Shown here: piece after piece, positions 18,164-40,792 of the stretch
How positions within the stretch are numbered: the stretch's first letter is position 1
How the letters are laid out: each line of letters starts with the position of its first letter
NCBI GenBank assembly: GCA_965248925.1
Contig: CBDFLE010000006.1
Location: forward strand, 1-64,000
Source of the DNA: Candidatus Multivoradales bacterium
GTDB lineage: Bacteria > Acidobacteriota > Thermoanaerobaculia > Multivoradales > J023
Reading direction: 5' to 3'
Length of the DNA stretch: 64,000 nucleotides
Made by a program: the position numbers and the translations under genes
Notes under the pieces: generated by a model
Databases searched by the model: none
The model's input: the letters and a program-made list of their open reading frames with translations, nothing else
What the model was told of the DNA's origin: nothing

Positions 18164-18412
18164 ATGCCCAGTTTGCAGATCCGCCATCTTCCCGACGACA
18201 TCTACATGGCCCTCTCCCACCGTGCCAAGCACCAAGGACGAAGCCTAGCCCAGCAGGTGATCGCCGAGCTACGGCAGATGAACGAGTTGGTCCGGCGCAG
18301 CCAACGCCTGGAGGTGATCGAGCAACTTCGCGAGGAGATCCGAACTAACCCTGCTCCTCGGCCTCTCGCCCCACCTCCCGAGGAGCTGCTGCGTCAGGGC
18401 CGCGATCGATGA
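18164..18412 (+). CDS. FitA/VapB-like ribbon-helix-helix antitoxin
   Basis: MPSLQIRHLPDDIY..L..RA...GRSL; AGGAGG RBS; ATGA overlap with the PIN gene. Confidence 0.88.
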   Translation: MPSLQIRHLPDDIYMALSHRAKHQGRSLAQQVIAELRQMNELVRRSQRLEVIEQLREEIRTNPAPRPLAPPPEELLRQGRDR

Positions 18413-18658
18413 GGCCGCAGGCGGTGCTCGACGCTTCGGCCGCGCTGCACGCAGTGCTAACCCAAGAACATGCCAGCGAAGTCCTGGACTTCCTGCACGG
18501 AACCGCCTTGGTGCTAGTGCCCGCTCTATTTACCAGCGAAGTGACTAACGGGCTGTGGAAATACGTTCGCAGCGGCCAGATCACCCGCCACCGTGCTATC
18601 CAACTACTCGATCAGGCACTGAAGCTAGCCGATTCGGTGGTCGACGACCGCGACCTCG
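18239..18658 (+). repeat. 420-bp direct repeat, left copy
   Basis: Matches 40373-40792 with 4 substitutions found by eye. Confidence 0.95.
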
Positions 18659-18738
18659 ATCGTAAAGTGACGCATAGTGGTTCCCCTATGCCGGATGTCC
18701 GTGATGCATTCATCGACGAGATACGGCCGCCAGCATGA
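18409..18738 (+). pseudogene. vapC: VapC PIN toxin, 3'-truncated by the island
   Basis: Near-identical to 40543-40962 up to 18658, then unrelated; lacks the YDALY motif. Confidence 0.9.
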
Positions 18739-18985
18739 AGCCGCCAGCGTCGCGAGGACCATCGACCTGAGCAGCTGCGATAATGCTATTGAAATCGCGG
18801 TCCAAAGTGAGGCTGGCGACTATCCTAGTCTGGTCTAGACCGACCCACAAAAGACTGACTATGAAACGGAACCTGATAGTGCACACATCATAAGCGGATT
18901 GCGAGGCGCCGGACCGAATAGAAACTCTGATTCTCGGACTAGACCACGGCGGCCCAAATCTTCTCCCATGGAAAGGACCTATTGA

Positions 18986-20134
18986 ATGAATGAAGCAAGT
19001 GAGCGATTGAGACTCTTCGGCTCTCTAAAGGATCTGCCCAGAAACGACCGCCAGCGAATCGGCCAAGATCTAGAGAAAGTTCGCTACGCAGCAGGAGATG
19101 AAATCTTCGCCGATCAATCGGCCGGAGAAGACATGTTCTTCATCCTCGAAGGCCAAGTGCTCCTGAGCAAGCGAGGACAAGTCTTGTTGACACGCGGCCC
19201 GGGAGAGTTCATCGGCGAAATGGCACTAATCGACGACACTCCACGGAGCACCGCAGCGGTAGCCGAATCAGATGCCTTGCTCCTTCGATGGAAGCGTAGC
19301 TCCTTCCGCGAGTGCCTCGAAGAAAATGGGCGGATCGCGTACTCAATTCTCCGAGCCTTGAGCACTAAAATGCGCCAAGAGATCGAGAAAACGACTCTCT
19401 TCAAACAGGACTTGGAGCGCGCCGTCCAAATACAGAGGGCCTTACTGCCGAAAACCAGCCTACAGGGCTCCACGGCAAAAGTCGCTATATCCTGTCAGCA
19501 AGCCGATGGTGTCGGCGGCGACTACTACGACTACGTCGACTTCGACTGCGGCGAGACTGCGTTGCTCATCGCCGATGCCCAAGGGCACGGCTTTGCCGCG
19601 GCTCTTCTGGTCGCTATGCTGAAAACCCGCTTCTCGAGCACGATCATCCATCAACGCGCTCCCGCAGAGGTCGTACGGGCCCTCAACCAGACCATTTCGG
19701 ACGACATTCAGACCGAAGTCCGCACTGCAACCTGCTTCCTCTTGCTTTTGGACGGCCCTCGAAGACTCTTCCGGTATTGCGGAGCCGGCCACCCCACTCA
19801 GTATCACCTACGGCCGAGCTCAGGATGCCTGACACGGCTGATCTCACAGAATCTCCTACTCGGATTCACCGGCCAGCAAGACAGATTCTCTGAGAGCACG
19901 GCAATCGAGTGGAAAGCGGGCGATCTCTTGCTACTCTGTACCGACGGTGTCGTCGAGATGAAGAATGAAGCGAAGCAAGAGTTCGGCCATCACCGCCTGA
20001 CTGAATTCATCGTCAACCACGGGCACCTCGATATCGAAGAAATCACCAAGCACCTACAAGAACAGCTCGATCTGTTTCGAGGAAACCGCGCCATCGCAGA
20101 CGACGTGACGTATCTCGTCGTGCGACTCCTCTAG
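18986..20134 (+). CDS. cNMP-binding domain plus SpoIIE/PP2C (RsbU-like) phosphatase
   Basis: FIGEMALIDDTPRST; VGGDYYD, IADAQGHG, TDGVVE, DDVT. Confidence 0.92.
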   Translation: MNEASERLRLFGSLKDLPRNDRQRIGQDLEKVRYAAGDEIFADQSAGEDMFFILEGQVLLSKRGQVLLTRGPGEFIGEMALIDDTPRSTAAVAESDALLLRWKRSSFRECLEENGRIAYSILRALSTKMRQEIEKTTLFKQDLERAVQIQRALLPKTSLQGSTAKVAISCQQADGVGGDYYDYVDFDCGETALLIADAQGHGFAAALLVAMLKTRFSSTIIHQRAPAEVVRALNQTISDDIQTEVRTATCFLLLLDGPRRLFRYCGAGHPTQYHLRPSSGCLTRLISQNLLLGFTGQQDRFSESTAIEWKAGDLLLLCTDGVVEMKNEAKQEFGHHRLTEFIVNHGHLDIEEITKHLQEQLDLFRGNRAIADDVTYLVVRLL

Positions 20135-20718
20135 CAGCAGATCACAAATGTGTTCAAAAGGCATCGGCATAGCAGCCGAATCAGAGAATTTCTTTGCCCC
20201 TACTAGCTCAGAACTCCTGATGTTGCGCCGGAAGACCGAAAGCGGTAACATGTATTAGTAGTTTAGGCGTTAGTCTCAGCTAGGTGAGGATTGCGGCTCT
20301 TTCCGCCTCAAGTGATAGTAGAGTCTGAGCAATGCTCGTCGGTTTCGGGCAAAGAGCAGCTGGCTGCCTCCTAGATCGTATCTAATAAGTGCTTTGCTTT
20401 GTTGAGGATGTGGACTCTCATGTTGACCGCTGGCCTCCGTCTGCCACGAGCGGAGCGGATCGGAAGACAGCTTCCGAGACTGATCCCAATACCCAACCGC
20501 CTAGCGACAGCGTGCCGAACAGGATATCGGGCCTACCCATTCACTCCAAGTCCTCGTAAACAGCAAGACTTCCCAGATCGGCACCGCGGCCTATCCCCGG
20601 CCGCACCCGGCACCCTGGCGGACTTCGGCACCAAAGCTCTACCAACCCTGCACGAAACAGACTGCGGTGGCCTCGACCGTGAACGCCCAACTTCGAGTGA
20701 CCATTTCGGTGAAAGACT

Positions 20719-22314
20719 GTGAGCACACGCGACCAGGAGCAGGCCGCAAGGGGAGCTAAGGAATCAGGCGCCTGGCCTATCCACCATTTACCCTCGGCCG
20801 CCGAGCGCAAAGTGCTCCGCGTCCTCTGGGGCCATCAGGGCAAAAACCTAGTTCGGATCGATATCCACAACAAGATCCCCGTCCTTCACCAGAGAACTCT
20901 CGGTCGCACCGGACAGATTCTGCGTAGCCTCTACGAAGAGGGACTAATAGACCGTGTTACCGGCCGCGCCCAGGGCAGTCGGCAAGCCGGCTTCTACGCC
21001 CTCTCCGAGCACGGGCTACAGTTCTGCAGAATCATGGGTTTCGAGCACAAGAAACGGGCACTCTTTCCGACATCGAGAGAGTTTCGTGAGCACTGGCTAA
21101 CGCCCAAGCACCTTTCAAGGCACCTCGATGCCCATGGCCAAATTGTGGCGGTCTACGGCTACATTCCTGGCCTAGGAAGATCGACTTTGATCGCCCACAT
21201 CGCCAAAGCAATGACAAGAGACTCCGGAACGAGAGAACAATTTCTGGTGGCCGACCTCGACTTCGAGTCGCCCGGACTCGACGATTTCTTTACCTCACAG
21301 GAAGCGCAGCACTGTCGTGGCCTTGGCGGCCTGCGAGTAGACTTCGAACTAAGACTTCCTCACAAGAGGGCACTCTGGCTTCGAGCCGCCTTGAGCGACT
21401 CTAAGTATGTAATTCGACCAACTGAGCCAGATGTTCCAGGATTACTCTACCTGCCGAGCGGGCTCAGTTCCAGGCAAACCGCCCTCTCCCCTACGGACCG
21501 AGGTGAAGCGCTGAGGCTGCTGCAGCAAGAGGCCGAATCATCTCCTAGAAATACCCCTAATCAACAGGCCTCGGAAGGGATGACTTTCCTGTCCGAGCTG
21601 CGAAAGGCACTCTCTGAGAAGTTCACCAAAGTCCTCATCGATTCGCAGTTTGGTCGTAGTCTCGGATCCTGGATTGCCACACAGCCTCTGCCCGATGAGC
21701 TTGTCGTCTGCGCCGAAGAGGCAGACAAGACCGAGACAACGATCGCTGGACTACAAGCAGTGCTCGCCAACTTCCTCAACCACCGAAATTATCACGGAGA
21801 ACCCGCAGGAGTATATTTCCTCTTCCGGCTCAAGGCCCCGACGAGCCCTGTTGATCTGAAAGAGTGGATCGATCGAAACCTGACCGTAGGAGATTCCGGC
21901 CACCGCCCTCGTCTCAAGTCTCCACCCTACCGGGTGGAGCAGCTGCCCTACGACTTGCGCTTGGCGAAAGATCGCCGGCACTGGGAGCACTCTCACTTCT
22001 ACCGACGAGTCATTCGCTTGCTGGGTCTGACTCCCGACACCGAGCCCTTTGAGGCTCCACCCCCAGAACTCCGCATCCTCTTGGACGTTCTCGATCCTAC
22101 AAGGAAGCAGTATGAAAGGACTCTCGCCGCCGGACTTCTGGAGAACGCTCCTCTGGCCGAACTTGCCAGGTGGATAGACTGGCATCATGCCAGAGGATCT
22201 CTGCCGGTAGAATCCGATACATTGGGAAGAAAGTTGCTGCAAGAAATCCTTGAGGTAAAAATGTTCTCAAGAATCATCAGTGCTTCTACTAATAGAACCA
22301 CGTCTAAAGAATAG
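20719..22314 (+). CDS. Winged-HTH fused to a ParA/MinD-like ATPase with degenerate Walker A
   Basis: N-terminal wHTH (ERKVLRVL...LYEEGLIDR...FYALSEHG); VYGYIPGLGRST, DLDFESPGL, LPSG, VLIDSQFG. Confidence 0.7.
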   Translation: MSTRDQEQAARGAKESGAWPIHHLPSAAERKVLRVLWGHQGKNLVRIDIHNKIPVLHQRTLGRTGQILRSLYEEGLIDRVTGRAQGSRQAGFYALSEHGLQFCRIMGFEHKKRALFPTSREFREHWLTPKHLSRHLDAHGQIVAVYGYIPGLGRSTLIAHIAKAMTRDSGTREQFLVADLDFESPGLDDFFTSQEAQHCRGLGGLRVDFELRLPHKRALWLRAALSDSKYVIRPTEPDVPGLLYLPSGLSSRQTALSPTDRGEALRLLQQEAESSPRNTPNQQASEGMTFLSELRKALSEKFTKVLIDSQFGRSLGSWIATQPLPDELVVCAEEADKTETTIAGLQAVLANFLNHRNYHGEPAGVYFLFRLKAPTSPVDLKEWIDRNLTVGDSGHRPRLKSPPYRVEQLPYDLRLAKDRRHWEHSHFYRRVIRLLGLTPDTEPFEAPPPELRILLDVLDPTRKQYERTLAAGLLENAPLAELARWIDWHHARGSLPVESDTLGRKLLQEILEVKMFSRIISASTNRTTSKE

Positions 22315-22333
22315 AAAACCTTGAGTAAGAGAG

Positions 22334-24940
22334 ATGGAACAATATATTTCCATGGATATCTCCAAACTCGACACTGAGGCGGCAGATCTCGTTGCCGCAA
22401 TCGCCTGTCAGTTCGACAGTACTCAAGATTCCATAAAGCAACTCAGAGTTCTGGCGAGCGCACTAGCCCACCAACCTCAGGTCACTGGAGCCCTGGTTGC
22501 TGCCTGCGAAGAAGGCGGCCCCACTCTCAGCGGCACCCGAAACTTCTCGATCGCTGGTACAATCTGTCCTCTCGATATTCTTGAGAAGGTCACGGGAAGC
22601 CTTCCCGACACTGGAAACTGGACAGACCTGGACCATACCGGAATAGAAGTGCCCGGAGCCTATTCGGTCTTAGGGCGCAAAATCATCGCAGAAGGCGAGA
22701 TGGTGGCTCTAGCACTGGTCGGCTTGGCAGACTCTGCCGGCGTGAATCCTCTCAAGAACCAACCCGAGTGGATTTGGCAGTATCTTGGGCGGACGGCTCA
22801 GAGCGCTCTCAACCGTCACGAGAAGCTCTACTTCGAACAACTGCGCAAGTTAGAGCTTCGCGCTCTAACACAACTTGAGGCCAGCCTCTCCGGCAACCTC
22901 GAAGCGCAGAGACTCCAACTGCGAAGAATTGCTAGAGATCTCAAAGAAATCTTCGCCTCCGCGGCCGTCACTATTCTCATCCGCGAGCAAGGCAAACTGT
23001 ACTTATCAGCAACGACCGACGTGAAGCTCGCCAAGTGCGAGGTCACCTATGATCCAGGACTGGGACTTACCGGCCACATCCTTGAGACTGGATGTGCGAT
23101 CAATCTCCGCAACGCAAGGGATCTCGGTGAAATGCGCCAGTGGCTTCCGGACGACCTGGTGCAGCAGAGAGGACCGGCTAGCTACTATCCAGAGACTCTC
23201 GCAGAGGCCAACGGTGACCCGTTTCGCTTTCTAGCCGTCCCAATGCGGTCGGACCATGAGATCAGAGGAGTCATCCGGATACTCCGCGAAGAGCAAGACT
23301 TCCCATATTCCCCATCCGAACAGAAGGCACTTCAACACTTTGCAGATTTCTTGGCGACTACTCTGCACGCTGCGTGGAAGCTCTTCCTTTCCAATTCGAT
23401 TATTGAAGCAGAGACTGAAGCAATTTGCGTTACCCGGCAAGAGCCCGGCAAGGGGCATGAAGCAGAAACCATCCCCAGGGTCGTTTACGTTGAACAGGGA
23501 GCAGAACGTCTCTTGGGTCTCAAGCGCGACCAGCTTGAGAACATGGATGGGCGTGAGCTTTACGCCGACGATGACTACGAGAGAGTACGCTTCTGTCTGG
23601 AACAGGCCATTCGCGAGGGAAAAAGAGTCTACGGCCCAATAAAGATCAAGACAAATCGCTTCGGAGACTCCGGAACAGACCTCCGATTCTCTGAAATTTC
23701 CTATCGCATGCTCACCAGCCCATTTGTGATACCCGAAACCCACTACACCATTGCGGTAATTCGAGACATTACGGAAGACGAGTTCCAGGCCGAACAGCAT
23801 CGTCGACTCATGGCTCTTCTCGATAAAAAGGGTTTGGCATACTTCCGAGCTGATGAGAACGGCAACACAATCGAGACGACGGCCACAGAGAGTAAGCTTA
23901 CCGGATACTCACTAAACGAGTTAAGGAACCTTTCACGAAAACACCTCTTTTACAATCCGCCGGACCGTCACCATCTTATCGGTACTGTCGACGAGCGTGA
24001 AGGAGAACTCGTCTTTACTAACCAACAGCTCAAACGCAAGGACGGCAGTCCCTTCTGGGTAGAGGGTCACATGCACAAGCTAAAGGACGTCGAAGACCGC
24101 AAGATCGGTTACGAAGGACTGTACGAAGATGTCACGGACCGAATGATGCTCCAGGAGTTACTCGACACCGGCGCAGACACAATTCTTAAGAAACGTGACC
24201 TGTATCAACAACTAAAGGAGAACACGAGGTTTCAATCCCTGTTCATGGCAAGTATGTGCCATCAACTCCGCTCCCCACTCGGTGCTCTCCTGGGCCAACT
24301 TCAGAATTTCGAAGAGGGCATCACTGACACGCTACGATTTTCGAAACGCCTACACTACGCTATCGGACAGGTGAAGATCTGTAGTCTTCTAGTTGCGAAC
24401 TTCACTTACATGGACAAGCTTCTGCGTGGTGAGCGATTCAAATTCAGACGCCTCAATCTCACTAAGTTAGTTATCGAAACAAGGATCGATTTTGAACATT
24501 TGGCCCATGAGCGCAAATTGAAGATCACGGTTGACTCCGAGAGTTGCGATCGTTATTTCCCGGCCGTCCATGGCCACAAAGAGTTGATTCGCCAGGTTCT
24601 TGTTAACTTGATCGACAACGCTATCAAGTATTCCAATCCTCACTCTACAATAAGGCTCGTAAGTAAAGAGATGCCCGGACGGATCTATCTGGAAATTGCT
24701 AGTCATGGTCTGCTTGTGCCCAAGGAGGACCGCAAGAAGATTTTCAATCGTGGCGTCCGCATCAAGGCAGCAGAAAATCTAGTACCTGAGGGAACTGGCT
24801 TGGGACTGTGGCTCGTCAAAAAAATTGTGAAGGCTCACGGCGGAGAGGTCCGTTGCACTGAGATTTCCCTGAAGGACAAGGCGCACATGGCTTTTCAGAT
24901 CAGTCTACCGGGCCGACAGCAAATCGGCAGGAGGAATTAG
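22334..24940 (+). CDS. GAF-PAS-PAS sensor histidine kinase (no TM segment evident)
   Basis: GLTGHI...FLAVPM..GVIR GAF; RKDGSPFWV PAS; HQLRSPL, NLIDNAIKYS, GTGLGL. Confidence 0.92.
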   Translation: MEQYISMDISKLDTEAADLVAAIACQFDSTQDSIKQLRVLASALAHQPQVTGALVAACEEGGPTLSGTRNFSIAGTICPLDILEKVTGSLPDTGNWTDLDHTGIEVPGAYSVLGRKIIAEGEMVALALVGLADSAGVNPLKNQPEWIWQYLGRTAQSALNRHEKLYFEQLRKLELRALTQLEASLSGNLEAQRLQLRRIARDLKEIFASAAVTILIREQGKLYLSATTDVKLAKCEVTYDPGLGLTGHILETGCAINLRNARDLGEMRQWLPDDLVQQRGPASYYPETLAEANGDPFRFLAVPMRSDHEIRGVIRILREEQDFPYSPSEQKALQHFADFLATTLHAAWKLFLSNSIIEAETEAICVTRQEPGKGHEAETIPRVVYVEQGAERLLGLKRDQLENMDGRELYADDDYERVRFCLEQAIREGKRVYGPIKIKTNRFGDSGTDLRFSEISYRMLTSPFVIPETHYTIAVIRDITEDEFQAEQHRRLMALLDKKGLAYFRADENGNTIETTATESKLTGYSLNELRNLSRKHLFYNPPDRHHLIGTVDEREGELVFTNQQLKRKDGSPFWVEGHMHKLKDVEDRKIGYEGLYEDVTDRMMLQELLDTGADTILKKRDLYQQLKENTRFQSLFMASMCHQLRSPLGALLGQLQNFEEGITDTLRFSKRLHYAIGQVKICSLLVANFTYMDKLLRGERFKFRRLNLTKLVIETRIDFEHLAHERKLKITVDSESCDRYFPAVHGHKELIRQVLVNLIDNAIKYSNPHSTIRLVSKEMPGRIYLEIASHGLLVPKEDRKKIFNRGVRIKAAENLVPEGTGLGLWLVKKIVKAHGGEVRCTEISLKDKAHMAFQISLPGRQQIGRRN

Positions 24941-24942
24941 AG

Positions 24943-25416
24943 ATGCCCCAAGGTGGTAAAGTATTACTTGTTGACGATCGTGTCGGCGACATCCAATGGG
25001 TGATTGATTTCCTGGAGAACTTTGGACAGAGAGTTGAGCGCGTTTCAAACGAGGCGGATGCCAGGAAACGATTCGATGCTGTAGGCTCGGGCAAGGCGTC
25101 CTACGTACTTGCTATTATCGACATCATGGTTTCGCTGAAGGACATCCTCGACATCTCCGAAGTCGACGAGACCTTCTATCGAAAGTCTAGTCGTACCGGA
25201 GTTCGGCTCTGCAAATACCTACGCGAAGAACTTCGTGTCAGCGCGGACGAGTTGCCTATCATCTGTATTTCTGGCAGGCCTGACGCAGAAGGGGTCCGTA
25301 AAGAGCTCCGCAAGCTCGGTATCCCCCTCTATAACCGGGTCCCTTCCCAAAGAGAAGAGTCGCTCCGAAGCGCTCTTACCGAGTACCTGCCGGAACTCAG
25401 CCGCCGGCAACAGTAG
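24943..25416 (+). CDS. Single-domain response regulator
   Basis: VLLVDD, AIIDIM, PIICISG. Confidence 0.85.
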   Translation: MPQGGKVLLVDDRVGDIQWVIDFLENFGQRVERVSNEADARKRFDAVGSGKASYVLAIIDIMVSLKDILDISEVDETFYRKSSRTGVRLCKYLREELRVSADELPIICISGRPDAEGVRKELRKLGIPLYNRVPSQREESLRSALTEYLPELSRRQQ

Positions 25417-26783: not shown

Positions 26784-27125
26784 CTATTCGGTGTAATCCG
26801 AGCCGGTGTGCAGCCCCTGCTCGCGCCGAGCGGTGCTTTGGAGATACTTGAGATACCCCTCGATGTCTTCAAGGCCATCGAGTTCTCGAATCACCGGCGC
26901 AAAGTAGGCGAGGGATCGGATCTTGGCTAGCTTGGGTGCCTCTGGAGATCGCTGGATTCGTCGACCGGCTGCGAGGAGAATGGCTGCTCTGATCTGATCG
27001 ATGGAGACTTGCTGCTGGTAGAGATCAAGAGCGAGTACGCGGTCAGTGGGTCTTGCCTGAGCAGGGGTCTCCTGCTGCTCAAGGTAAGCTCTGAGAATCG
27101 CCTGGACGTAGTCGCACTTGCTCAT
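26784..27125 (-). CDS. IS21 accessory hypothetical protein (113 aa)
   Basis: MSKCDYVQAILRAYL...IRSLAYFAPVI; ATGA overlap with the istB stop; inside the IRs. Confidence 0.7.
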   Translation of the reverse strand: MSKCDYVQAILRAYLEQQETPAQARPTDRVLALDLYQQQVSIDQIRAAILLAAGRRIQRSPEAPKLAKIRSLAYFAPVIRELDGLEDIEGYLKYLQSTARREQGLHTGSDYTE

Positions 27126-32933: not shown

Positions 32934-33337
32934 CTAAGGATCAGGTTGCTCGGGCTTGCCTAGACTCGACAACACTATTGCCCAAAATCGAGGGATTCGC
33001 CTTCGAGTTGTACAAGCCTCATCCCGACTGCGTCGATGAGTGGGGGGAGCAAGAGTTTACCAGTAGTTGGACTGAGCGAGCGCAGTGACGGTCAACTCCA
33101 GGCCTGGTGCAGATTCAAGGGTGAGATTCGTGCGGACGAGCAGGAAGGGCAACACCGCGCACTAAACGAACGGATGGTCAAGATGGGACGCATTCAAATC
33201 CAATTCCCTCGTGAGTTCGCAGCCTAACACTGGAGCCAGTTTTTTCATCAGGAATCTACCTTCTGGAAAAAAGTGCAGGATTTCAAAGTGAAATTCTCAG
33301 GGATGACCGGCGGAGAAAGCTGCTTGGTGATCTAGCA

Positions 33338-34960
33338 TCAACCAGCGCCCGGGTTACCCCCGGCGCGAGGGCCTGCTGGTGGTAACCCAGGCTCTCGGAC
33401 TTCCTGGAGGCAGCGTTGATACCGAGCCCATGCTTCGAGATAGAATCCCATAGAGGCAGGAAGCTCACCGTTCAAGAATTCAAAGAATCTCGGAACGCAG
33501 GCCTCACAGGCCTGCAGAGCGGCATTCGCCAAGCTTGCGGTCTCCTTCAAGAAATGTAGGCGTTCCTTCTCGGAGAGACAGGACGTAGTCTTGGCTCGAA
33601 TCCGACTCTGGAGGTAAGTTGTAATGCTCTCGGGCCTCTCCCACGGCCAGAGTCGTGCGACGTTGTCTTCGCCGGTGCTAAGTATCTTGTTGCCTTCTGG
33701 ATTAAACTTGGCTGATTTCATGCTGCCTGTGCTGCCGCCGAATACTGCGACTTCTCGGGAGGTCTCGGCACTCCATACACGCAGCGTACCGTCTTCCGAA
33801 GAGGTAACTATCCACCGCCCATCTGGGCTAAACGTCGCCGAGGTGACTGCTTTCTGATGGCCCTTCAACGTTCTAAACTCTCTCGTTGCCAAGGTCCAGA
33901 CGCGAGCTGTCTGGTCCTCGGACGCAGTTACGACAAACTTCCCATCGGGACTAAACTTGGCATCTCGAATCAATCCACGATGACCGAGGAGTGTCGACTT
34001 CGGGCTTCTGGAGGTTAGTTTCCTGGGAGGATCAGCGTTCCAGAGGTATACCTTCCTACCGGAGGCGGTCAACACCGTGCGGCTAGCAGAATCTAGCGCC
34101 ATGGCCTTGATCTGATTGTGGGGACTCCGTTTCAACAGCAACCTAATCTGTCTTATATAGCTCCACCAACGCAGATTCTGATCTTGCGAAGTGGTGAGAA
34201 TTCGGTTTCTCTCGACATCAAACAGTACTCCGGTAACCGACTCACGGTGTTTGAGTCTCTTTGGTTCTGGCCTTCTTTCACCGGTGGCTCTGCCCCAAAC
34301 CAAGGCCACGGAGTCAGGCGAGATGGTCACTATCCATTTCTCATCGGAGCTGAAGACCGCTTTTGTAACGGGACCGTCATGACCACTCAACGTATCTAGC
34401 GAGCCACCCGTTTCGGCATCCCATACTTTCGCGGTGCCGTCTTGAGATGCGGTCAGCACGCGAAGACCCTCTGGGGCACTCAGACCTTTCGGGTTGAATC
34501 TCGCCGTATTCACTCGGTTCAGATGTCCCTTGAGGATGTTCTCCTGCTCCCCTGTTCGCGCGTTCCAGATTATTGCGGTTTGATCTTCAGACGCCGTCAC
34601 AATCCGCGATCCCGAGGGATCGAAGGAAGCTTCCAATATTCGCTTGGCGTGCCCGGCAAAGGCGAACAGTTCGGCACCTGCCAACGGCTCGGTTGACGCC
34701 GAGTTTCCCGACTTGTGTTCTGGACTGGCGAGGGCTCTATTCAGCACTACGAAACTGTTTGGAACGTCCGCCGGTCGACGAATCTCCAGCAGCAAGAGTC
34801 TTGCTCTCAGTCCCGGTATCTGCTCAGCGGCAACATCGAAGATTTCCTGATCCGTAATATTGATATTCTCCGTCTTGGGATCTAACATTCCACATCCGAC
34901 TAGCACGGCCACTACCAGAGCACCGAACGAATCTGTGCCTCGCCAACGCTCAGTCCGCAT
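33338..34960 (-). CDS. WD40 repeat lipoprotein
   Basis: LVGC lipobox; repeated GH...FSPDG..VTASEDQTARVW. Confidence 0.85.
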   Translation of the reverse strand: MRTERWRGTDSFGALVVAVLVGCGMLDPKTENINITDQEIFDVAAEQIPGLRARLLLLEIRRPADVPNSFVVLNRALASPEHKSGNSASTEPLAGAELFAFAGHAKRILEASFDPSGSRIVTASEDQTAIIWNARTGEQENILKGHLNRVNTARFNPKGLSAPEGLRVLTASQDGTAKVWDAETGGSLDTLSGHDGPVTKAVFSSDEKWIVTISPDSVALVWGRATGERRPEPKRLKHRESVTGVLFDVERNRILTTSQDQNLRWWSYIRQIRLLLKRSPHNQIKAMALDSASRTVLTASGRKVYLWNADPPRKLTSRSPKSTLLGHRGLIRDAKFSPDGKFVVTASEDQTARVWTLATREFRTLKGHQKAVTSATFSPDGRWIVTSSEDGTLRVWSAETSREVAVFGGSTGSMKSAKFNPEGNKILSTGEDNVARLWPWERPESITTYLQSRIRAKTTSCLSEKERLHFLKETASLANAALQACEACVPRFFEFLNGELPASMGFYLEAWARYQRCLQEVREPGLPPAGPRAGGNPGAG

Positions 34961-34965
34961 ACCTG

Positions 34966-37900
34966 CTACTCAACGAGATGAATGTCCTCACCCGCCAAGC
35001 TCCCACTGTCGGTACGAAATCGAACTTCCCAAAGGCGGCCCTGACCGACATCCTCTGAAATCTCCATCCATGAGTAAATTTGTTCGGTCTCGTGAAACGT
35101 ATTGTCATAGTCCTTCTTCACTTGGTCGGTCACGCATACTCCACCCTCACGAGCTATCTCCATCACTCGGCTAGCAGTGTGGACTACCAGCCCGTGTGCA
35201 TCATCTCTGTCAACCTGCACCTCGCCGACGTGAACTCCTACTCGCACTGTGATCTTCTCGTGACCTGTTCGGCCTTCAAGCTCAACAGCGAACTTGAGCG
35301 CTTCTATCGAGCTACGAAAGGCTATCATGCGGCCGTCGCCAGTCGACTTCACAACAAAACCGCCATGCCTCTCGGCGAGAGTATCGGTCTTGTCGAAGTG
35401 TTGATTCCGCACTATCGCCCAGGCAGCGGCCTTTATTTCGTTTAGGAGATGAGTGCTTCGGACTACGTCAGTGAAGACGATCGCTAGCTGGACGTACTCG
35501 GAACTCGAGCCGCCTAACCATCCCCAGAGCCCATCGCGTCGCTCATCGCTCCCCGCCTGTTGCCTAAACAGGATCCTGGTCCTTAAATAGGTGCCGGACA
35601 GCAGCGCTGCAAGTAACAGAATCACGTACAATACCGGCCGGTCGAAAGGAAATCGCAGTACTCTCCGGTCTGCGAAACTCCAGCGGTGCGCCGGCAGTTG
35701 GGTCTTGTAGACCACGAAGTCAAGGCGGCGCGACAACTCGGCCTGTTCTTTCCGAGGATCCCAGACGAACCTACCTCGCTGCCCAGCGGCCAGCTCGAGG
35801 AAGGCGTCGGTCGTGAATGGGCCGTAGTAGTCCGGGGACCGGATCGCAACATGGTCTGCGCTGAAACTGTCGTCACCGATACTGATCAGGTCGACTGTCA
35901 GTCGATTTCCTACGAGGGACAGTCGGGCGCTCTGCCAATCGACTTTAGGAACGCGGTTTATGACCTGAATTGGGTCCAGGAACAGGTGTTTGCCGCCACC
36001 ACTCGTCACGACCAGGTCCAAGGCTGCCTCTTGTGTTGTCGGATACTCGTAGGAGCTTTGAAGCGAAACCTCGCCACGTAGCTCAGCTGTTTCTCCTGGC
36101 TCGATAACGACCTGTACGGGCGGCGGATGGAAGACCACCGGAGTGTTGACCGCCGATTTGACTTGGTTAACCTTCACCCAGATTGCTCGTTGCGGGCCTG
36201 GGTTTCTGAGCGTGAGTGTCAACGGCGCCAACTCACCGTCCGTGAGTCGGACTTGATCCGGTAGTCGTTTAGCAAGCTGCAGGTCAGGCGCGGACTCTGC
36301 GCGTTGCAAGGGCATCGACTCGAATACGCCGGAGTTGCTCTGGCGCAACAAGAGAGTGCCGTCATCATAGCGGTAGCAGCGCCCTTTGCGTCGGCAGTCG
36401 ATCCACTGACCTCGATCGCCGCCGAGGAGAACGCTGGAAAGCGTGCACCTTGCCACTTTACAAGGTGACCAGATCCTCACCACACCCTCGCCAATACCGA
36501 CGGTGGCCAACGCATCGCCAGCCTTCCCAAAAGCCGCAGCACTCAGCCCGTTGCGGTCGATACGGCCAGCCAGCGAGGCGTGCTGCTGACCAATCACCCA
36601 GACGAAAACCTCGCCGCCGCGCAGCACAACGCCGACTCTCGTCGGCGAGATGAAATGCACGGCCAACGCATCGCCAGCTAACCGCCTGCTACCGCTGGAC
36701 AGAAGATCCTTGGACTCAAGGTCCCAAAGATACAAGCCGCCGCCACCGAAAGCGCCGACTAGCCGCCTACCGTCGGAGCTGAAAGCCAAGGCCTGGACTC
36801 TCTGCTGGGGCATATCGTTGTCTCTCGAACTCGTCTGAGCGAAGCGACCGTAGAGTTCGCGCGTGGACAGGTCAAGAACTTGGACCATGCCGTCGTCGAA
36901 ACCCGCCGCCAGGAGACCGCCATCGGGAGAGAAAGCGAGCGCCGCTACCGCGGATGTCTGCGCCGGAAGCGGCGCTTGCCTATCAAAGCGTCGTGCACCG
37001 TCGGCCGCCCGTCGCCACCAAGTGATAGGCCCATCCTGGAAACCGGCGGCCAGCGTGTCGCCCATAGCACTGAGCGCGAGGCAGCGAGGCGCCTTCCCTC
37101 CAGAGAGTGGAAACGTCCAAGGGCCGTGAGCCGGCTTGCTGTTGCGGTCCCAAAGCCGGATCGCTCCTCTGGAGCCTGCCACCAGACTCTGCCCGCCGTT
37201 GCCGAACGCCAGCGCCTTGACTAGCGGCACACCTCCTCCGAGTCGGCGCACCAGCTGGCTGGATGAGAAGGACCAGATTCCTACGAAACCCTCGCGTGTC
37301 CCCGCCGCAAGGAGTCTGCCGGAAGGACTGGGGCTGAGTGCGAAGACCTCGTCGCCGAAGTTCTCCAGCTGCGCCACCTCAGTGCCGGCAACGTAGCTCC
37401 AGAGCCGCACGCTACCGTCGCGCGAGGCAGAAGCAACCATATGGCCGTCCGGATGCCACACCACAGCCGTAGCAGCTAAGCGATGGCCTTCGAAAAGGCG
37501 CACCATTTTGCCGGTGTCGACCTCCCAGACCCGAACAGTGCTGTCGGCGGACGCCGAAGCCAAGAACTCTCCCTTCGGCCCCCAACTGACCGCATTCACA
37601 CGCTCATCGTGAGCGCCCTTAATCGTTGGTCCAAGAGGTTTGCCGTCGGCAGCATTCCAGAGCTTGATCGTGCGGTCCCACGATCCGGTGGCCAGAGCAT
37701 GGCCGTTAGGATGCCAGGCAAGCGCGGCAATCCTCTCGCCGTGTGCAGACCAAGCCGGCAGCTTGGCGGCACCAGTCCGCGGATCTAAGATCGTGACTGT
37801 GCCGTCTTTGGAACCGATCGCCAACAGGTCAGCGCGAGGGCTAAAGGCCACCGTCCAACCACTCCAGCGACGCGGTTGCCGGTCCGCTTTAAGGTCCCAG

Positions 37901-38301
37901 AGCCGTACCGTGCCATCGTCAGAGCTACTGGCTAACCAGCGACCATCAAAACTGAAAGAGAGGGTCTCTACGGGGCCTGAATCGTCTTCTAGCCGAAAGC
38001 TCTCTAGACCCGTTTCTAGGTCCCACAATGCGACGACACCAGCCGCCCCTCCGGTCGCCACCTCTCTGCCGTTTGGATGCCAGGCGAGCGCGTAGAGTGC
38101 CTCTCTTGATTTGACGCCGGAGAGCAGTTCTGCAGTTTCTTCAATCGACTCAGCGAACTTCTCACCGCCGAGAACCAGTGGCAGTAGGTCTTGGGTCGGC
38201 TGCGCGGCAGCCGGCCCAGGCGTTGAGTAGACTGTTAAGAAAGCGCATGTAACCAGAGTTCCCCAGCTCGACCAAGCCCGGCACGACAAAGCGTGAAGCA
38301 T
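34966..38301 (-). CDS. Receptor-type class III nucleotide (likely adenylate) cyclase with extracellular WD40 propellers
   Basis: Signal-like N-terminus, many WD40 repeats, TM VLYVILLLAALLSG, then VFTDVVRST, VVKSTGDG, RVGVHVGEV, DAHG..VHTASR. Confidence 0.88.
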   Translation of the reverse strand: MLHALSCRAWSSWGTLVTCAFLTVYSTPGPAAAQPTQDLLPLVLGGEKFAESIEETAELLSGVKSREALYALAWHPNGREVATGGAAGVVALWDLETGLESFRLEDDSGPVETLSFSFDGRWLASSSDDGTVRLWDLKADRQPRRWSGWTVAFSPRADLLAIGSKDGTVTILDPRTGAAKLPAWSAHGERIAALAWHPNGHALATGSWDRTIKLWNAADGKPLGPTIKGAHDERVNAVSWGPKGEFLASASADSTVRVWEVDTGKMVRLFEGHRLAATAVVWHPDGHMVASASRDGSVRLWSYVAGTEVAQLENFGDEVFALSPSPSGRLLAAGTREGFVGIWSFSSSQLVRRLGGGVPLVKALAFGNGGQSLVAGSRGAIRLWDRNSKPAHGPWTFPLSGGKAPRCLALSAMGDTLAAGFQDGPITWWRRAADGARRFDRQAPLPAQTSAVAALAFSPDGGLLAAGFDDGMVQVLDLSTRELYGRFAQTSSRDNDMPQQRVQALAFSSDGRRLVGAFGGGGLYLWDLESKDLLSSGSRRLAGDALAVHFISPTRVGVVLRGGEVFVWVIGQQHASLAGRIDRNGLSAAAFGKAGDALATVGIGEGVVRIWSPCKVARCTLSSVLLGGDRGQWIDCRRKGRCYRYDDGTLLLRQSNSGVFESMPLQRAESAPDLQLAKRLPDQVRLTDGELAPLTLTLRNPGPQRAIWVKVNQVKSAVNTPVVFHPPPVQVVIEPGETAELRGEVSLQSSYEYPTTQEAALDLVVTSGGGKHLFLDPIQVINRVPKVDWQSARLSLVGNRLTVDLISIGDDSFSADHVAIRSPDYYGPFTTDAFLELAAGQRGRFVWDPRKEQAELSRRLDFVVYKTQLPAHRWSFADRRVLRFPFDRPVLYVILLLAALLSGTYLRTRILFRQQAGSDERRDGLWGWLGGSSSEYVQLAIVFTDVVRSTHLLNEIKAAAWAIVRNQHFDKTDTLAERHGGFVVKSTGDGRMIAFRSSIEALKFAVELEGRTGHEKITVRVGVHVGEVQVDRDDAHGLVVHTASRVMEIAREGGVCVTDQVKKDYDNTFHETEQIYSWMEISEDVGQGRLWEVRFRTDSGSLAGEDIHLVE

Positions 38302-38434
38302 AGCTGCTAGAGACGAAGGCACAGGTTTTAGGCGAGAAGAAGACCCATCGTGAAACTTCGCCAAGCTAGACCCGGAGGACACGCTAACCGGACGCGACCT
38401 CGATCTTCTCCTCCATCGTGGACGAGGCAAGCTA

Positions 38435-39727
38435 TCAACGGGCCGCCGCTGTCAGGCAATCAATCGGCGGCCGCCCTTGTTCCAACGGCGAAGATTCCGG
38501 CTCGCTGATCCAATTCTCAGGAATCGTTGTTGCAGCCAGTAGTCGGTGCTTCTTGGCTCTTGGCAACCAGGAGTCGAGTTCGAGTGCTAGCCAGAAGGCC
38601 TCTCCTGACAGGACATACAAGTGGCGTGTCGCGCGCTGCGTCGGAAGTCGTACCTCACCTAGCACTTGGACGATGCCTTTGTTGAAATCCGGCTCCAACT
38701 TGACAACCCTCCAAGTCGTTACTCCAGGCCTCCGGCCCTCCGGCCCGCGGAGCAGAGCATAGAGGAACTCTCCAACGGAATAGAGTCCGACCGGGATTTT
38801 CATCCCCTCGACGCTCTTGTACATCTCGGCAACAGTGCCAGCTGGCGGATAAGGCATAGACTCGTTGGAGCCAGGAAACCCCTCTAGTCGGCCGCGCGAG
38901 CCGTCCCTCGTGTCGTAGTAATGCAGACTAGGGGAGGTGCTCATCTCCAAAAAGTACACCAAGTCGCCTGCGACAGCGATGAACTCGTGATGGAATGCGT
39001 AGTGTCGGTACCCAGGTACATCCCAGATCATCTGAGCCTTCGGCGTGACGTTGGCATTCCCTGGCGTCTGGACTTGGGTTAGGTAGAAACCTTCTCGAAC
39101 GACGTCAAGACGTCCGTCAATCCCTAGCGCGCCGTAGGCGAAGAACTGATCGGCCACTGGCTGCCAATCAAACATCGACATCACCCGATTGTCCTCGATC
39201 AGCTCTCCCGTCATTCCAACGCGGCTCACCAACTCTGTTCGACCCCGCTTGAGGAGACTTGCGTCGAACCACTGGATGGAGCTGGGAATACCGTTTCCAA
39301 GATTCAGATTTAGACCAACGAAGCCGCCATTGCTGCGCTTGATGCCGTAGACGATTTCACGGACCGGCTCATCGCCGACAGCGGTCAGCGACTCCTTTGG
39401 GTAGTAGTCGCCAGCGCGACTAGCCGACAAGCTCTGCTCGACCGTGACGGAGCCGCTTACGATATCGCGGCTCAACGCCAACTCAAGACTCTTCCGATCA
39501 AACATACTCACGAGCAACGCCCGCGATTGCTCGACATCGCCCCAGGTAGCGAAGTTGAACTTGGAAGCTTGCCAATCCGAGTTGACCGACTCGCGCCAAC
39601 AGCCTTCCGCCCGAGAACCGCCCGCGATCAATCCTCCTATCAAAGCGAGCAACAGGGAGAGGCCGAGACCTCCGGGGTACCAACGGTCGATACCCGAATT
39701 GAGCTGAACATTCGTTCGAGTAGTCAT
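38435..39727 (-). CDS. Secreted hypothetical protein, beta-rich (possible propeller)
   Basis: 430-aa ORF with signal LGLSLLLALIGGL; GAGGG RBS; operonic spacing. Confidence 0.7.
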   Translation of the reverse strand: MTTRTNVQLNSGIDRWYPGGLGLSLLLALIGGLIAGGSRAEGCWRESVNSDWQASKFNFATWGDVEQSRALLVSMFDRKSLELALSRDIVSGSVTVEQSLSASRAGDYYPKESLTAVGDEPVREIVYGIKRSNGGFVGLNLNLGNGIPSSIQWFDASLLKRGRTELVSRVGMTGELIEDNRVMSMFDWQPVADQFFAYGALGIDGRLDVVREGFYLTQVQTPGNANVTPKAQMIWDVPGYRHYAFHHEFIAVAGDLVYFLEMSTSPSLHYYDTRDGSRGRLEGFPGSNESMPYPPAGTVAEMYKSVEGMKIPVGLYSVGEFLYALLRGPEGRRPGVTTWRVVKLEPDFNKGIVQVLGEVRLPTQRATRHLYVLSGEAFWLALELDSWLPRAKKHRLLAATTIPENWISEPESSPLEQGRPPIDCLTAAAR

Positions 39728-39746
39728 GGTCTGGCCGCCCTCTGAA

Positions 39747-39941
39747 TCAGTTAACATTTTCTTCATTGCGGCAAACACCATTAGCGCTCATGCAAGGAAC
39801 GCCGGTTCCCAGGACCAAACCTGTGGCTCCGCGGCATTGACTGCCGAGAGTGCCCTCGCTGGCCTGGGTCGACATCGGCGCCACCTGCACTAGCCCGACG
39901 ATCAAAACGAGCAACAATAATCTAACGCAGACTCTGCTCAT
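39747..39941 (-). CDS. Small secreted Cys-containing peptide (64 aa)
   Basis: GAGGAG RBS; signal MSRVCVRLLLLVLIVGLV...TQA; mature part with 3 Cys. Confidence 0.6.
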   Translation of the reverse strand: MSRVCVRLLLLVLIVGLVQVAPMSTQASEGTLGSQCRGATGLVLGTGVPCMSANGVCRNEENVN

Positions 39942-40372
39942 ATCTCAATGCTCCTCAGTATCAAATGCTCATGTGCTCATGCCTGCCTAAGGGGAAGTTT
40001 CCGGATCGACTCGTGTCGATTTCAGACACCAGACTCAGCGCGCCGAAGGTCGCAGATTCGATTGCCGCTAGTGGTAGTGGCTAGCATTCCTCGCGCCTCA
40101 ACTGCTTGACCACAGAACCGAAAAGCTGGTCCCAATTCGGCTCAACAACCTGTAAATCCCCGTCTGATGAGTCAAGTATCCCCTTACGGACCTCGGTTTG
40201 CAATCCCAATGTACCGCTTCCTATCTCACTATCCTAGTACCTCTCGTGTTCCTCCAGACCCTGCTACGCGGCCCTCGTCGGGTCTCTAAGCTTAACCCAG
40301 TCAGCTGTTTAGGGGGCCGAGATTATCAATTTCTGTGCAGGCAGCTGGCGAGCGGGCTGCCACCTGCTCGAT

Positions 40373-40792
40373 CGAAGCCTGGCCCAGCAGGTGATCGCCG
40401 AGCTACGGCAGATGAACGAGTTGGTCCGGCGCAGCCAACGCCTGGAGGTGATCGAGCAACTTCGCGAGGAGATCCGAACTAACCCTGCTCCTCGGCCTCT
40501 CGCCCCACCTCCCGAGGAGCTGCTGCGTCAGGGCCGCGATCGATGAGGCCGCAGGCGGTGCTCGACGCTTCGGCCGCGCTGCACGCAGTGCTAACCCAAG
40601 AACATGCCAGCGAAGTCCTGGACTTCCTGCACGGAACCGCCTTGGTGCTAGTGCCCGCTCTATTTACCAGCGAAGTGACCAACGGGCTGTGGAAATACGT
40701 TCGCAGCGGCCAGATCACCCGCCACCGTGCTATCCAACTACTCGACCAGGCACTGAAGCTAGTCGATTCGGTGGTCGACGACCGCGACCTCG
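40373..40792 (+). repeat. 420-bp direct repeat, right copy (antitoxin 3' part plus vapC 5' part)
   Basis: Matches 18239-18658. Confidence 0.95.

What the first reader, a model, noticed from the sequence alone, without database searches (positions are those of the whole stretch)
18239..40792. Integrase-free 21.7-kb island bounded by 420-bp target repeats with CTCGATCG at both junctions
Seen: 18239-18658 and 40373-40792 are direct repeats (4 substitutions) of an internal vapB-vapC fragment. CTCGATCG straddles both inner junctions (18655-18662, 40367-40374). No recombinase or terminal transposase lies at the ends. Inference: this fits a circle closed at CTCGATCG that captured a host fragment and integrated by single crossover, or an unknown mechanism producing very long target duplications. 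Neither is a standard att-site or TSD pattern.
Basis: partly seen in the sequence, partly recalled or inferred. Interest (0 to 1): 0.75.

Follow-up and report, generated by a model that had tools for sequence, protein, structure and literature searches.

The report
Recombinase-free island with 420-bp target duplication
A foreign eight-gene signalling cluster sits inside a toxin-antitoxin operon between two copies of a 420-base piece of that operon, and short shared words at the joints suggest it arrived by error-prone joining of DNA, not through a dedicated mobility enzyme.

Summary
18239-18658 and 40373-40792 are sharp-edged direct repeats (416 of 420 identical) of an internal vapB-vapC piece. 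They are the only two copies in the 7.98-Mb genome. Removing the 21,714-bp insert plus one copy would restore one intact vapBC. CTCGATCG straddles both inner joints (chance about 1e-3). No integrase, resolvase, terminal inverted repeat or tRNA is present. The three insertion sequences (ISs) in the middle are later simple insertions of resident multi-copy elements.

The cargo is one conserved eight-gene cyclic-nucleotide signalling set, also found in two distant metagenome-assembled genomes (MAGs) in a different gene order.

New here: the host word CGAAGCCT stands at the repeat's start and again 4 bp past its end (chance about 1e-3). Three microhomologies (CTCG, CG, CGAAGCCT) therefore explain both joints and the length of the duplication.

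Best reading: microhomology-guided illegitimate recombination of a circular or terminally redundant DNA opened at one CTCGATCG site. A last Campbell-type crossover remains possible.

The layout belongs to a described but unexplained class, "insertion with long target duplication" (Furuta et al. 2010). The same genome holds a textbook restriction-modification (RM) example. No close relative or empty site exists in the data I could search, so the mechanism is inferred.

The parts
18134..18412 (+). vapB antitoxin gene, intact (92 aa, ribbon-helix-helix)
   Evidence: FitA-like_RHH, E 1.1e-8; translation.
18409..18738 (+). vapC 5' remnant. The first 83 codons are vapC; the frame then reads 26 codons into the island.
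   Evidence: partial PIN match; identical to the intact VapC up to residue 83 except A74/V74.
18239..18658 (+). Left copy of the 420-bp repeat (F)
18239..18246 (+). CGAAGCCT at the start of F, left copy (site s1)
18655..18662 (+). CTCGATCG across the left inner joint (host CTCG + island ATCG)
18659..40372 (.). Inserted island, 21,714 bp (15,339 bp without the three ISs). It begins ATCG and ends CGAT.
18819..18829 (+). ACTATCCTAGT, one of the only two copies in the genome, 160 nt from the left island end
18986..20134 (+). cNMP-binding PP2C/SpoIIE phosphatase
   Evidence: SpoIIE 2.5e-42, cNMP_binding 8.3e-18.
20399..20722 (+). 107-aa ORF, no family found
20719..22314 (+). 531-aa P-loop ATPase with a below-cut-off match to KGGVGR-motif AAA
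   Evidence: NF047398, 1e-12, 48.8 bits against a cut-off of 90.
22334..24940 (+). GAF-PAS-PAS histidine kinase
24943..25416 (+). 157-aa ORF, conserved in the cluster, no family found
25429..33070 (+). Pentapeptide-repeat gene broken into three pieces (25429-26449, 31267-31380, 32939-about 33070) by two IS insertions
   Evidence: the 564-aa homologue of L032 aligns collinearly to the three pieces.
26450..31266 (-). IS5-like element (DUF772 + DDE_Tnp_1 transposase at 30036-31178), itself split by the IS21-like element. 14 other copies in the genome.
26759..30064 (-). IS21-like element (IstA/IstB), flanked by a CAGTC target duplication. 5 other full copies.
31381..32938 (-). Third IS (DDE_5 transposase at 31391-32431). 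3 other full copies.
33338..34960 (-). WD40 protein, 540 aa
34966..38430 (-). WD40 protein, 1154 aa, with a C-terminal adenylate/guanylate cyclase domain
   Evidence: Guanylate_cyc 1.2e-10.
38435..39781 (-). 448-aa protein of no known family, probably a beta-propeller (low-confidence model); not a recombinase-like fold
   Evidence: mean pLDDT 54. Kelch-type hits, TM 0.28 or less.
40228..40238 (+). Second copy of ACTATCCTAGT, 134 nt from the right island end
40367..40374 (+). CTCGATCG across the right inner joint (island CTCGAT + host CG)
40373..40792 (+). Right copy of the 420-bp repeat (F). It begins with CGAAGCCT.
40543..40962 (+). vapC toxin gene, intact (139 aa, PIN)
   Evidence: PIN 8.8e-15..
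40797..40804 (+). CGAAGCCT again, 4 bp after the end of F inside vapC (site s2)
   Evidence: P(8 or more within 25 nt) = 1.35e-3; the word occurs 0.039 times per kb per strand.

Best explanation
A foreign DNA carrying one eight-gene cyclic-nucleotide signalling cluster was joined into the chromosomal vapBC operon by microhomology-guided illegitimate recombination. No island-encoded or neighbouring recombinase was involved.

Shown:
- Both island ends map to one CTCGATCG word. The island begins ATCG and ends CTCGAT.
- The left joint shares CTCG with vapC, and the right joint shares CG with vapB.
- The host word CGAAGCCT stands both at the first base of the duplicated piece and 4 bp after its last base.

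Inferred path:
1. The incoming DNA was circular, or terminally redundant, and was opened at CTCGATCG.
2. It was first joined into vapC between ...GACCTCG and CGAAGCCTTGG..., using CTCG on one side and CG on the other. The four bases CCCG were lost.
3. The CGAAGCCT copy next to the island's right end then paired with the copy 424 bp upstream on an island-free vapBC. That partner could have been a sister duplex, DNA of a sibling strain, or a further template switch in the same replication-repair episode.
4. The 420-bp stretch was thereby copied a second time, giving vapB-F-island-F-vapC.

The result is an 'insertion with long target duplication'. Later, resident ISs landed twice in the pentapeptide gene and once inside one of those ISs.

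The four differences between the copies (three silent, one A/V that both occur in homologues) most simply mean that one copy stems from a slightly different allele.
For: - Sharp 420-bp repeat of an internal operon piece whose two copies complement each other to one intact vapBC.
- CTCGATCG at both inner joints: chance 238 of 200,000.
- CGAAGCCT at the F start and 4 bp after the F end. A word of 8 or more within 25 nt occurred in 404 of 300,000 random trials, and the word itself is rare at 0.039 per kb per strand.
- No tyrosine or serine recombinase anywhere in the window in six-frame searches. No terminal inverted repeat of 9 or more. No tRNA. No Rfam family.
- All island proteins scanned, and the one large unknown folds as a beta-rich, propeller-like protein.
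- The ISs are simple later insertions. The pentapeptide gene runs on across both, the IS21-like element has a CAGTC duplication, and these ISs have 14, 5 and 3 other copies.
- The island equals exactly one conserved gene set found in two other genomes, with lower GC than the flanks.
- 3 of 4 substitutions are silent, and residue 74 is A or V in functional homologues.
- The same layout recurs in this chromosome with other cargo and no integrase inside the insert: an RM gene in alaS (130 bp, 129 of 130 identical), a transposase + BrnT insert (121 bp, 120 of 121), and a DUF3800 cassette (281 bp, 89%).
Against: - No empty site, no step-1 intermediate and no circular form could be looked for. The nearest genomes are only 62-70% identical in the flanking protein. 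All 4 public runs come from one sample. An exact 33-mer of F is absent from metagenome contigs.
- The two 8-bp coincidences were found after the fact, and each is only about 1e-3.
- The pattern is not general. Among the 3 other long-duplication inserts of this genome, none shows a straddling junction word. Only one shows a weak 5-mer analogue of the CGAAGCCT arrangement, with a null probability of 4.3e-2.
- The two island ends are not neighbours in the two related clusters: there the 448-aa gene follows the 157-aa gene. Contiguity of the ends in the source is therefore unproven.
- Four differences between copies of a supposedly fresh duplication need either a foreign allele or a long residence.
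Confidence: 0.5

Rival explanations
1. Pure Campbell-type entry. A circular DNA that already carried the 420-bp vapBC piece integrated into an intact resident vapBC by one RecA-dependent homologous crossover. The piece would have been picked up in an earlier, closely related host by aberrant excision across the two CGAAGCCT words. This shares the first step with the best explanation and differs in the last event.
For: - The layout is exactly that of a single crossover with an internal fragment.
- The copies differ at 4 sites, 3 of them silent, as two alleles would.
- The other two young duplications in this genome also differ by about 1%.
- Excision across CGAAGCCT would give precisely the observed right joint.
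Against: - The island has no replication, transfer or packaging gene, and no plasmid or vector matches it.
- No second strain or circular form is visible in the contigs of the 4 runs. Contigs cannot exclude rare forms.
- It needs three rare events in two hosts.
Confidence: 0.25
2. Nuclease-made ends. The island DNA was cut at CGATCG (CGAT^CG type) or at GATC by a sequence-specific endonuclease. The ends were then joined to a staggered chromosomal break, in line with the double-strand-break idea put forward for RM-linked long target duplications.
For: - A full CGATCG palindrome is rebuilt at both joints, and the island begins ATCG and ends CGAT, as a circle cut once at CGAT^CG with its 2-nt overhang kept on both ends would.
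- PMC2853133 (passages) suggests breakage as the property common to such insertions.
Against: - CGATCG is 2.8-fold over-represented in this genome, the fourth highest of 64 six-base palindromes. GATC is 8.3 per kb. Neither shows avoidance.
- The island has no RM gene.
- No Ku homologue is present for end joining.
- It leaves the host CTCG and CGAAGCCT matches unexplained.
Confidence: 0.08
3. An ordinary integrase- or transposase-driven element whose enzyme acted in trans or has since been lost. The repeats would then be att sites or target duplications.
For: The genome holds at least 38 tyrosine-recombinase and 4 resolvase matches elsewhere, and many active ISs.
Against: - None lies in the 64-kb window.
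- The repeat is an internal 420-bp operon piece truncated on opposite sides, not a gene end or a tRNA.
- No terminal inverted repeats.
- 420 bp is far beyond the transposon target duplications cited in PMC2853133: under 10 bp as a rule, 19-26 bp for IS1630 (passage).
- The ISs lie in the middle and interrupt one gene.
Confidence: 0.05
4. Assembly artefact (misjoin of two vapBC paralogues or of two strains), or a laboratory insertion mutant.
For: The genome looks like a metagenome assembly, to judge from the millions of Logan contigs per run. The layout also mimics insertion-duplication mutagenesis with restriction sites on the primers.
Against: - Independent short-word contigs of 4 runs hold A-F, F-island, island-F and F-B joints: all four types in 3 of 4 runs, three types in the fourth, of which only 69% was read. 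Depths are similar, and the shared core lies at about double depth.
- The copies carry their own variants.
- No vector or plasmid sequence.
- The insert is a natural gene cluster riddled with resident ISs.
Confidence: 0.03

Closest known systems
Insertion with long target duplication (Nobusato et al. 2000, Gene 259:99, not read; Furuta, Abe and Kobayashi 2010, PMC2853133, abstract and passages read)
   Same: DNA without its own mobility genes lies between long direct repeats of a sequence that is unique in the genome. Published repeat lengths are 46 to 423 bp with a few mismatches (for example 417/423). The repeats often span gene ends. The mechanism is unsettled.
   Different: - The cargo is a signalling gene cluster, not an RM system.
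- The insert is 21.7 kb (15.3 kb without ISs), against their limit of under 20 kb.
- No empty-site genome is available for comparison.
- Here the joints carry readable microhomologies (CTCG, CG, CGAAGCCT). No paper in the searched library holds both 'long target duplication' and 'microhomology'.
- Their supplementary figures, which may show junction sequences, could not be seen.
Campbell-type single-crossover integration (F-prime and specialised-transducing-phage re-entry; insertion-duplication with a cloned internal fragment). Recalled knowledge.
   Same: An internal fragment ends up as direct repeats on both sides of the insert, each flanking gene copy is truncated on the opposite side, and recombination between the repeats restores the gene.
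   Different: No replicon, vector, phage or transfer genes. The circle is only inferred. The fragment's borders coincide with short host and island words.
Short-homology illegitimate recombination and serial template switching (lambda bio/gal transducing-phage formation; homology-facilitated illegitimate recombination in transformation; MMBIR/FoSTeS in eukaryotes). Recalled knowledge.
   Same: Joints at 2-8 bp microhomologies, small loss at the target, re-copying of a nearby stretch.
   Different: A 15-22 kb insert with a 420-bp duplication is not, to my knowledge, a documented bacterial outcome of these routes. It was not tested here.
Integrase-borne genomic islands and prophages with att repeats
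   Same: A lower-GC island between direct repeats in a host gene.
   Different: No integrase, no tRNA, and the repeat is an internal operon piece far longer than a core site.
[quoted passage not shown]
   Same: It gives direct repeats with foreign DNA between them. A 424-bp tandem duplication across the two CGAAGCCT words followed by insertion at its joint would give the same product.
   Different: It needs the rare insertion to hit an unstable duplication joint. The order of events cannot be told from one genome.

Membership tests
Insertion with long target duplication (criteria as quoted in PMC2853133) | Direct repeats longer than 30 bp flank the insert | tested here: met
   420 bp, 416 of 420 identical.
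Insertion with long target duplication (criteria as quoted in PMC2853133) | The repeated sequence is otherwise unique, and no mobility gene accounts for the insertion | tested here: met
   Only two copies in the genome. No recombinase in the window. The ISs are nested later arrivals.
Insertion with long target duplication (criteria as quoted in PMC2853133) | A related genome shows the empty site with one copy of the repeat | not testable with these tools
   No close relative among 40 relatives' genomes. 4 runs from one sample only. No exact match in metagenome contigs.
Insertion with long target duplication (criteria as quoted in PMC2853133) | The insert holds R and M genes | tested here: not met
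   No RM domain in any island ORF. PMC3457768 says the pattern is also recognised for 'other DNAs'.
Insertion with long target duplication (criteria as quoted in PMC2853133) | Insert shorter than 20 kb | tested here: inconclusive
   21,714 bp now; 15,339 bp once the three later ISs are taken out.
Integrase-type genomic island / prophage | Tyrosine or serine recombinase gene in or beside the island | tested here: not met
   Six-frame PF00589 and PF00239 searches give no hit in C6:1-64000.
Integrase-type genomic island / prophage | att repeat at a tRNA gene or gene end, with the target gene kept whole | tested here: not met
   No tRNA between 10000 and 50000. The repeat is internal, and each copy is truncated on the opposite side.
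Transposon / composite transposon | Terminal inverted repeats or flanking ISs, with a short target duplication | tested here: not met
   Longest inverted match between the 400-nt ends is 8 nt, which is within the shuffle range. The ISs lie in the middle. The duplication is 420 bp.
Campbell-type integration of a circle by homologous crossover | An internal fragment duplicated in direct order, with complementary truncations | tested here: met
Campbell-type integration of a circle by homologous crossover | Existence of the circular form carrying one copy of the fragment | not testable with these tools
   Its two joints are the same as in the integrated form, and only contigs of the runs were on hand.
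VapBC type II toxin-antitoxin pair (the target) | RHH antitoxin gene overlapping a PIN toxin gene | tested here: met
   FitA-like RHH and PIN. The vapB stop overlaps the vapC start at 18409-18412.

The most novel reading that the evidence does not exclude
Long target duplications have gone without an established mechanism since they were named in 2000. They may arise when a circular copy of a gene cluster is stitched into a chromosome by a short series of microhomology-guided template switches or break-joins. The length of the duplication would then be set by a chance repeat of a host word near the entry point. The flanking repeats would afterwards allow the cluster to leave as a circle and re-enter siblings by one crossover. 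This would be a general, enzyme-free way for gene clusters (here a signalling set, elsewhere in this genome an RM gene and a toxin cassette) to move.
Probability: 0.2. Interest if true: 0.65.

Novelty: new member of a known kind. Interest (0 to 1): 0.45.

Why it matters
Most genomic islands are explained by integrases or transposases. A minority sit between long duplications of their target with no such gene, and how they get there has stayed open.

This case is unusually legible. Both island ends fall in one 8-bp word. Both joints show microhomology. A second 8-bp host word accounts for the length of the duplication. That turns a descriptive class into a testable path, with a predicted intermediate: the island in vapC without the duplication.

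The case also shows that whole signalling clusters, not only RM systems, can travel this way. One soil-bacterium chromosome holds at least four such insertions.

Tried and rejected
- Residual homology beyond the repeat (old paralogues with a conversion tract): none above shuffles.
- Empty site in relatives: 40 relatives' genomes searched with both flanks. Only the acetyltransferase and transporter genes match, at 33-70% protein identity, with no synteny to use.
- Public runs: 4, all from one sample. Laying them gave contigs only, so no phasing, circle or empty allele could be sought. The left-arm contig lies at about twice the flank depth in runs X2 and X3 but not in X1 and X4. I leave this unexplained, since contig depth is one figure per contig.
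- Exact 33-mer of the repeat in metagenome contigs: none.
- Plasmid collection, near mode, whole island: no match.
- 448-aa end gene as a hidden recombinase: no family in Pfam, NCBIfam or PADLOC. Nearest outside relative is 60% identical. The model is poor (mean pLDDT 54). Foldseek gives only weak Kelch/propeller likeness (TM 0.28 or less). This is not evidence of any enzymatic role.
- PADLOC on 9 island proteins: only domain-level hits (cNMP-binding, HATPase, WD40); no defence system.
- The first genome-contig scan with the single 448-aa protein found nothing. The alignment query found 2 loci.
- Flanking long repeats around the related clusters L032 and L033: none.
- The 11-mer ACTATCCTAGT in L032/L033 with 2 or fewer mismatches: chance level.
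- Other two-copy direct repeats in the genome with CGATCG or any straddling word of 8 or more: none apart from an overlapping tandem duplication.
- Ku-type end joining: no Ku.
- Aberrant excision after a reciprocal crossover inside CTCG alone: rejected, because it would leave CCCG, not AT, at the right joint (sequence logic).

Full report
OBSERVATION

The repeat is real and sits where stated. The repeat finder gives a perfect 300-nt pair 22,134 nt apart. Alignment and base-by-base comparison extend it to 420 nt, 18239-18658 and 40373-40792, with four transitions at 18247, 18546, 18612 and 18629.

Identity stops abruptly on both sides. The next 300 nt are no more alike than shuffled sequence: 106 of 300 shuffles downstream and 178 of 300 upstream reach the observed score. 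This is therefore not a pair of old paralogues with a conversion tract.

The sequence has only these two copies in the 7.98-Mb, six-contig assembly.

The left copy lies in an intact vapB (RHH antitoxin, 18134-18412) followed by the first 83 codons of vapC. The right copy holds the last 36 codons of vapB followed by an intact vapC (PIN, 40543-40962). Taking out the 21,714-bp insert and one copy would leave one whole vapBC.

CTCGATCG lies at 18655-18662 and 40367-40374. In 200,000 random junction sets from this genome, a shared word of 8 or more straddled both joints 238 times, even though CGATCG is 2.8-fold over-represented here.

Contigs of four public runs, all from one sample, hold the joints as follows:
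- host-F, F-island, island-F and F-host in 3 of 4 runs;
- three of the four types in the fourth run, of which 69% was read;
- a 364-nt shared core contig at about double depth in X1 and X4 (37.3 against 19.3 + 15.6; 20.5 against 9.83 + 10.1) and higher in X2 (13.8 against 4.84 + 4.52); for X3 (56.6) the island-F contig was not listed, so the sum cannot be formed.
A misjoin is therefore unlikely. Long-range linkage rests on the assembly itself.

WHAT THE INSERT IS

The GC content is 0.555 without the ISs, against 0.62-0.64 in the flanks.

The genes are:
- a cNMP-binding PP2C/SpoIIE phosphatase;
- a 107-aa ORF;
- a 531-aa P-loop ATPase;
- a GAF-PAS histidine kinase;
- a 157-aa ORF;
- a pentapeptide-repeat gene;
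- on the other strand, a 540-aa WD40 protein;
- a 1154-aa WD40 protein ending in an adenylate/guanylate cyclase domain;
- a 448-aa protein of no family whose poor model looks like a beta-propeller.

A cyclase on one arm and a cNMP-binding phosphatase on the other tie the two arms into one functional unit.

The three transposase-bearing elements in the middle are resident multi-copy ISs, with 14, 5 and 3 other copies. The IS21-like one sits inside the IS5-like one with a CAGTC duplication. The pentapeptide gene continues in register across both IS blocks: the 564-aa homologue of L032 aligns to 25429-26457, 31258-31401 and 32933-33070. The ISs are therefore later simple insertions and play no part in the island's ends.

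The same gene set occurs at 37-61% protein identity in two MAGs, one of them labelled Acidobacteriota. Seven of the nine window ORFs match in one MAG and eight in the other; the 107-aa ORF matches in neither, and each MAG also has a pentapeptide-repeat gene. The order of the gene blocks differs. Neither has long flanking repeats. The island is thus exactly one copy of a conserved, uncharacterised gene cluster and nothing else.

WHAT IS ABSENT

- No tyrosine or serine recombinase anywhere in the 64-kb window by six-frame search (38 and 4 hits elsewhere in the genome).
- No terminal inverted repeats.
- No tRNA and no Rfam family.
- No plasmid or vector match.
- No Ku homologue in the genome.

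THE JOINTS

The island reads ATCGTAAAG...CTGCTCGAT. The left joint is host ...GACCTCG followed by island ATCG. The right joint is island ...CTCGAT followed by host CGAAGCC.

If the island's ends are closed on each other through one CTCGATCG, the left joint shares CTCG with the host and the right joint shares CG.

The new point concerns the intact host sequence after the repeat, which reads CCCG CGAAGCCT TGG. The repeat itself begins CGAAGCCT. The same rare 8-mer (0.039 per kb per strand) therefore marks the first base of the duplicated stretch and a place 4 bp after its last base. In 300,000 random trials, a word of 8 or more recurring within 25 nt occurred 404 times.

Two independent coincidences of about 1e-3, both of the kind that microhomology-dependent joining leaves behind, are the core of my reading.

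MECHANISM (INFERRED)

Step 1. A circular or terminally redundant copy of the cluster, opened at CTCGATCG, was joined into vapC between ...GACCTCG and CGAAGCCTTGG through CTCG and CG. CCCG was lost. This is an ordinary illegitimate insertion.

Step 2. The CGAAGCCT next to the island's right end paired with the CGAAGCCT 424 bp upstream on an island-free vapBC, and the stretch between was copied again. This could have happened in any of three ways:
- as a third template switch within one replication-repair episode;
- as an exchange with a sister duplex or with DNA of a sibling strain;
- as excision of a circle across the two words followed by a single homologous crossover into an intact vapBC.

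The reverse order, a 424-bp tandem duplication first and insertion at its joint second, gives the same product and cannot be excluded.

Three of the four differences between the copies are silent. The fourth is A74/V74, and both residues occur in functional homologues. With only four sites this is weak: by my own estimate, about 0.05 under random change with roughly a quarter of changes silent. It favours one copy stemming from a slightly different allele, that is, a sibling strain as partner at some stage.

COMPARISON WITH WHAT IS KNOWN

Its abstract and passages describe 'insertion with long target duplication': RM systems between direct repeats of 46 to 423 bp of a unique target, with no mobility genes, and with double-strand breakage suggested but no mechanism shown. 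Lim et al. 2012 (PMC3457768, passages) state that the pattern is recognised for RM systems 'and other DNAs', and draw a tandem-duplication alternative. Nobusato et al. 2000 was not available to read. The supplementary figures of the 2010 paper, which may show junction sequences, could not be seen.

The present case meets the structural criteria. It fails the RM-cargo criterion, lacks an empty-site comparison, and is 21.7 kb (15.3 kb without ISs).

The same chromosome holds further examples:
- a textbook one, in which a single 857-aa methylase-BsuBI/PstI endonuclease gene sits in alaS between 130-bp repeats, 129 of 130 identical;
- a transposase + BrnT insert between 121-bp repeats;
- the DUF3800 cassette noted earlier, between 281-bp repeats of 89% identity.

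None of these three has a junction word shared by both joints. Only the alaS case has a faint analogue of the CGAAGCCT arrangement, a 5-mer with a null probability of 0.043. I therefore cannot claim that the path proposed here is general.

No paper in the searched library holds both 'long target duplication' and 'microhomology'.

VERDICT

However, the layout is a member of a described class, and the octamer does not recur at other islands.

The best-supported mechanism is microhomology-guided illegitimate recombination, with the duplication length set by a chance 8-bp host repeat. My confidence is about 0.5. A final Campbell crossover is the main rival at 0.25.

Everything about the order of events and the form of the incoming DNA is inferred from one genome. 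Raw long reads and sibling strains would decide.

Noticed in passing
G000 C6:1436028-1439049 (locus L027): A single 857-aa gene fusing an N6 methylase (Eco57I-like) with a BsuBI/PstI endonuclease domain lies in the 3' part of an alanyl-tRNA synthetase gene, between 130-bp direct repeats (129 of 130 identical). [quoted passage not shown]
   Followed up: partly
G000 C6:5004195-5006788 (locus L028): A 2,352-bp insert with a split Mutator-family transposase and a BrnT toxin gene lies between 121-bp direct repeats (120 of 121 identical) in the 3' part of an FHA/ferredoxin oxidoreductase gene.
   Followed up: partly
A tyrosine-recombinase match lies about 3 kb away, at 969321-969818.
   Followed up: partly
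G000 C6:3375703-3387120 (locus L031): 382-bp direct repeats (97.4%) flank 10.7 kb holding a TerB-N/TerB-C protein, a BrxC/D-type ATPase, a DEAD-box helicase, a 2OG-Fe oxygenase and an IS3-type transposase. This is possibly a defence island of the same layout.
   Followed up: no
window 18986-26449 and 32939-39781; loci L032:4457-19422 and L033:2872-17773: A conserved, uncharacterised gene set recurs in two distant MAGs with permuted block order: cNMP-binding PP2C phosphatase, P-loop ATPase, GAF-PAS kinase, 157-aa protein, pentapeptide protein, two WD40 proteins (one with a cyclase domain) and a 448-aa propeller-like protein. It is probably one cyclic-nucleotide signalling system.
   Followed up: partly
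window 18819-18829 and 40228-40238: ACTATCCTAGT occurs only twice in the whole genome, once near each island end, in the same orientation. It may be an operator of the two divergent promoters. The chance of such an 11-mer between two 400-nt ends is a few percent.
   Followed up: partly
window 18582-26450 (contigs of runs X2, X3): The contig covering the island's left arm has about twice the word depth of the flanking and right-arm contigs in two of four runs (9.59 against 4.5-5.5; 46.7 against 18-24), but not in the other two. Unexplained; it may be a GC effect.
   Followed up: no
G000 C5:923200-976003 and C6:3501654-3517752: Near-identical tyrosine-recombinase genes of about 372 aa recur every 7.5-12 kb: eight on C5 and three on C6. 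This looks like tandem arrays of one integrative element.
   Followed up: no
whole genome G000: The six-base palindromes CACGTG, ACGCGT and CGTACG occur at 0.05-0.14 of expectation, which hints at restriction systems with those sites. CGATCG, TGATCA, AGATCT and ATCGAT are 2.8-3.6-fold over-represented.
   Followed up: no
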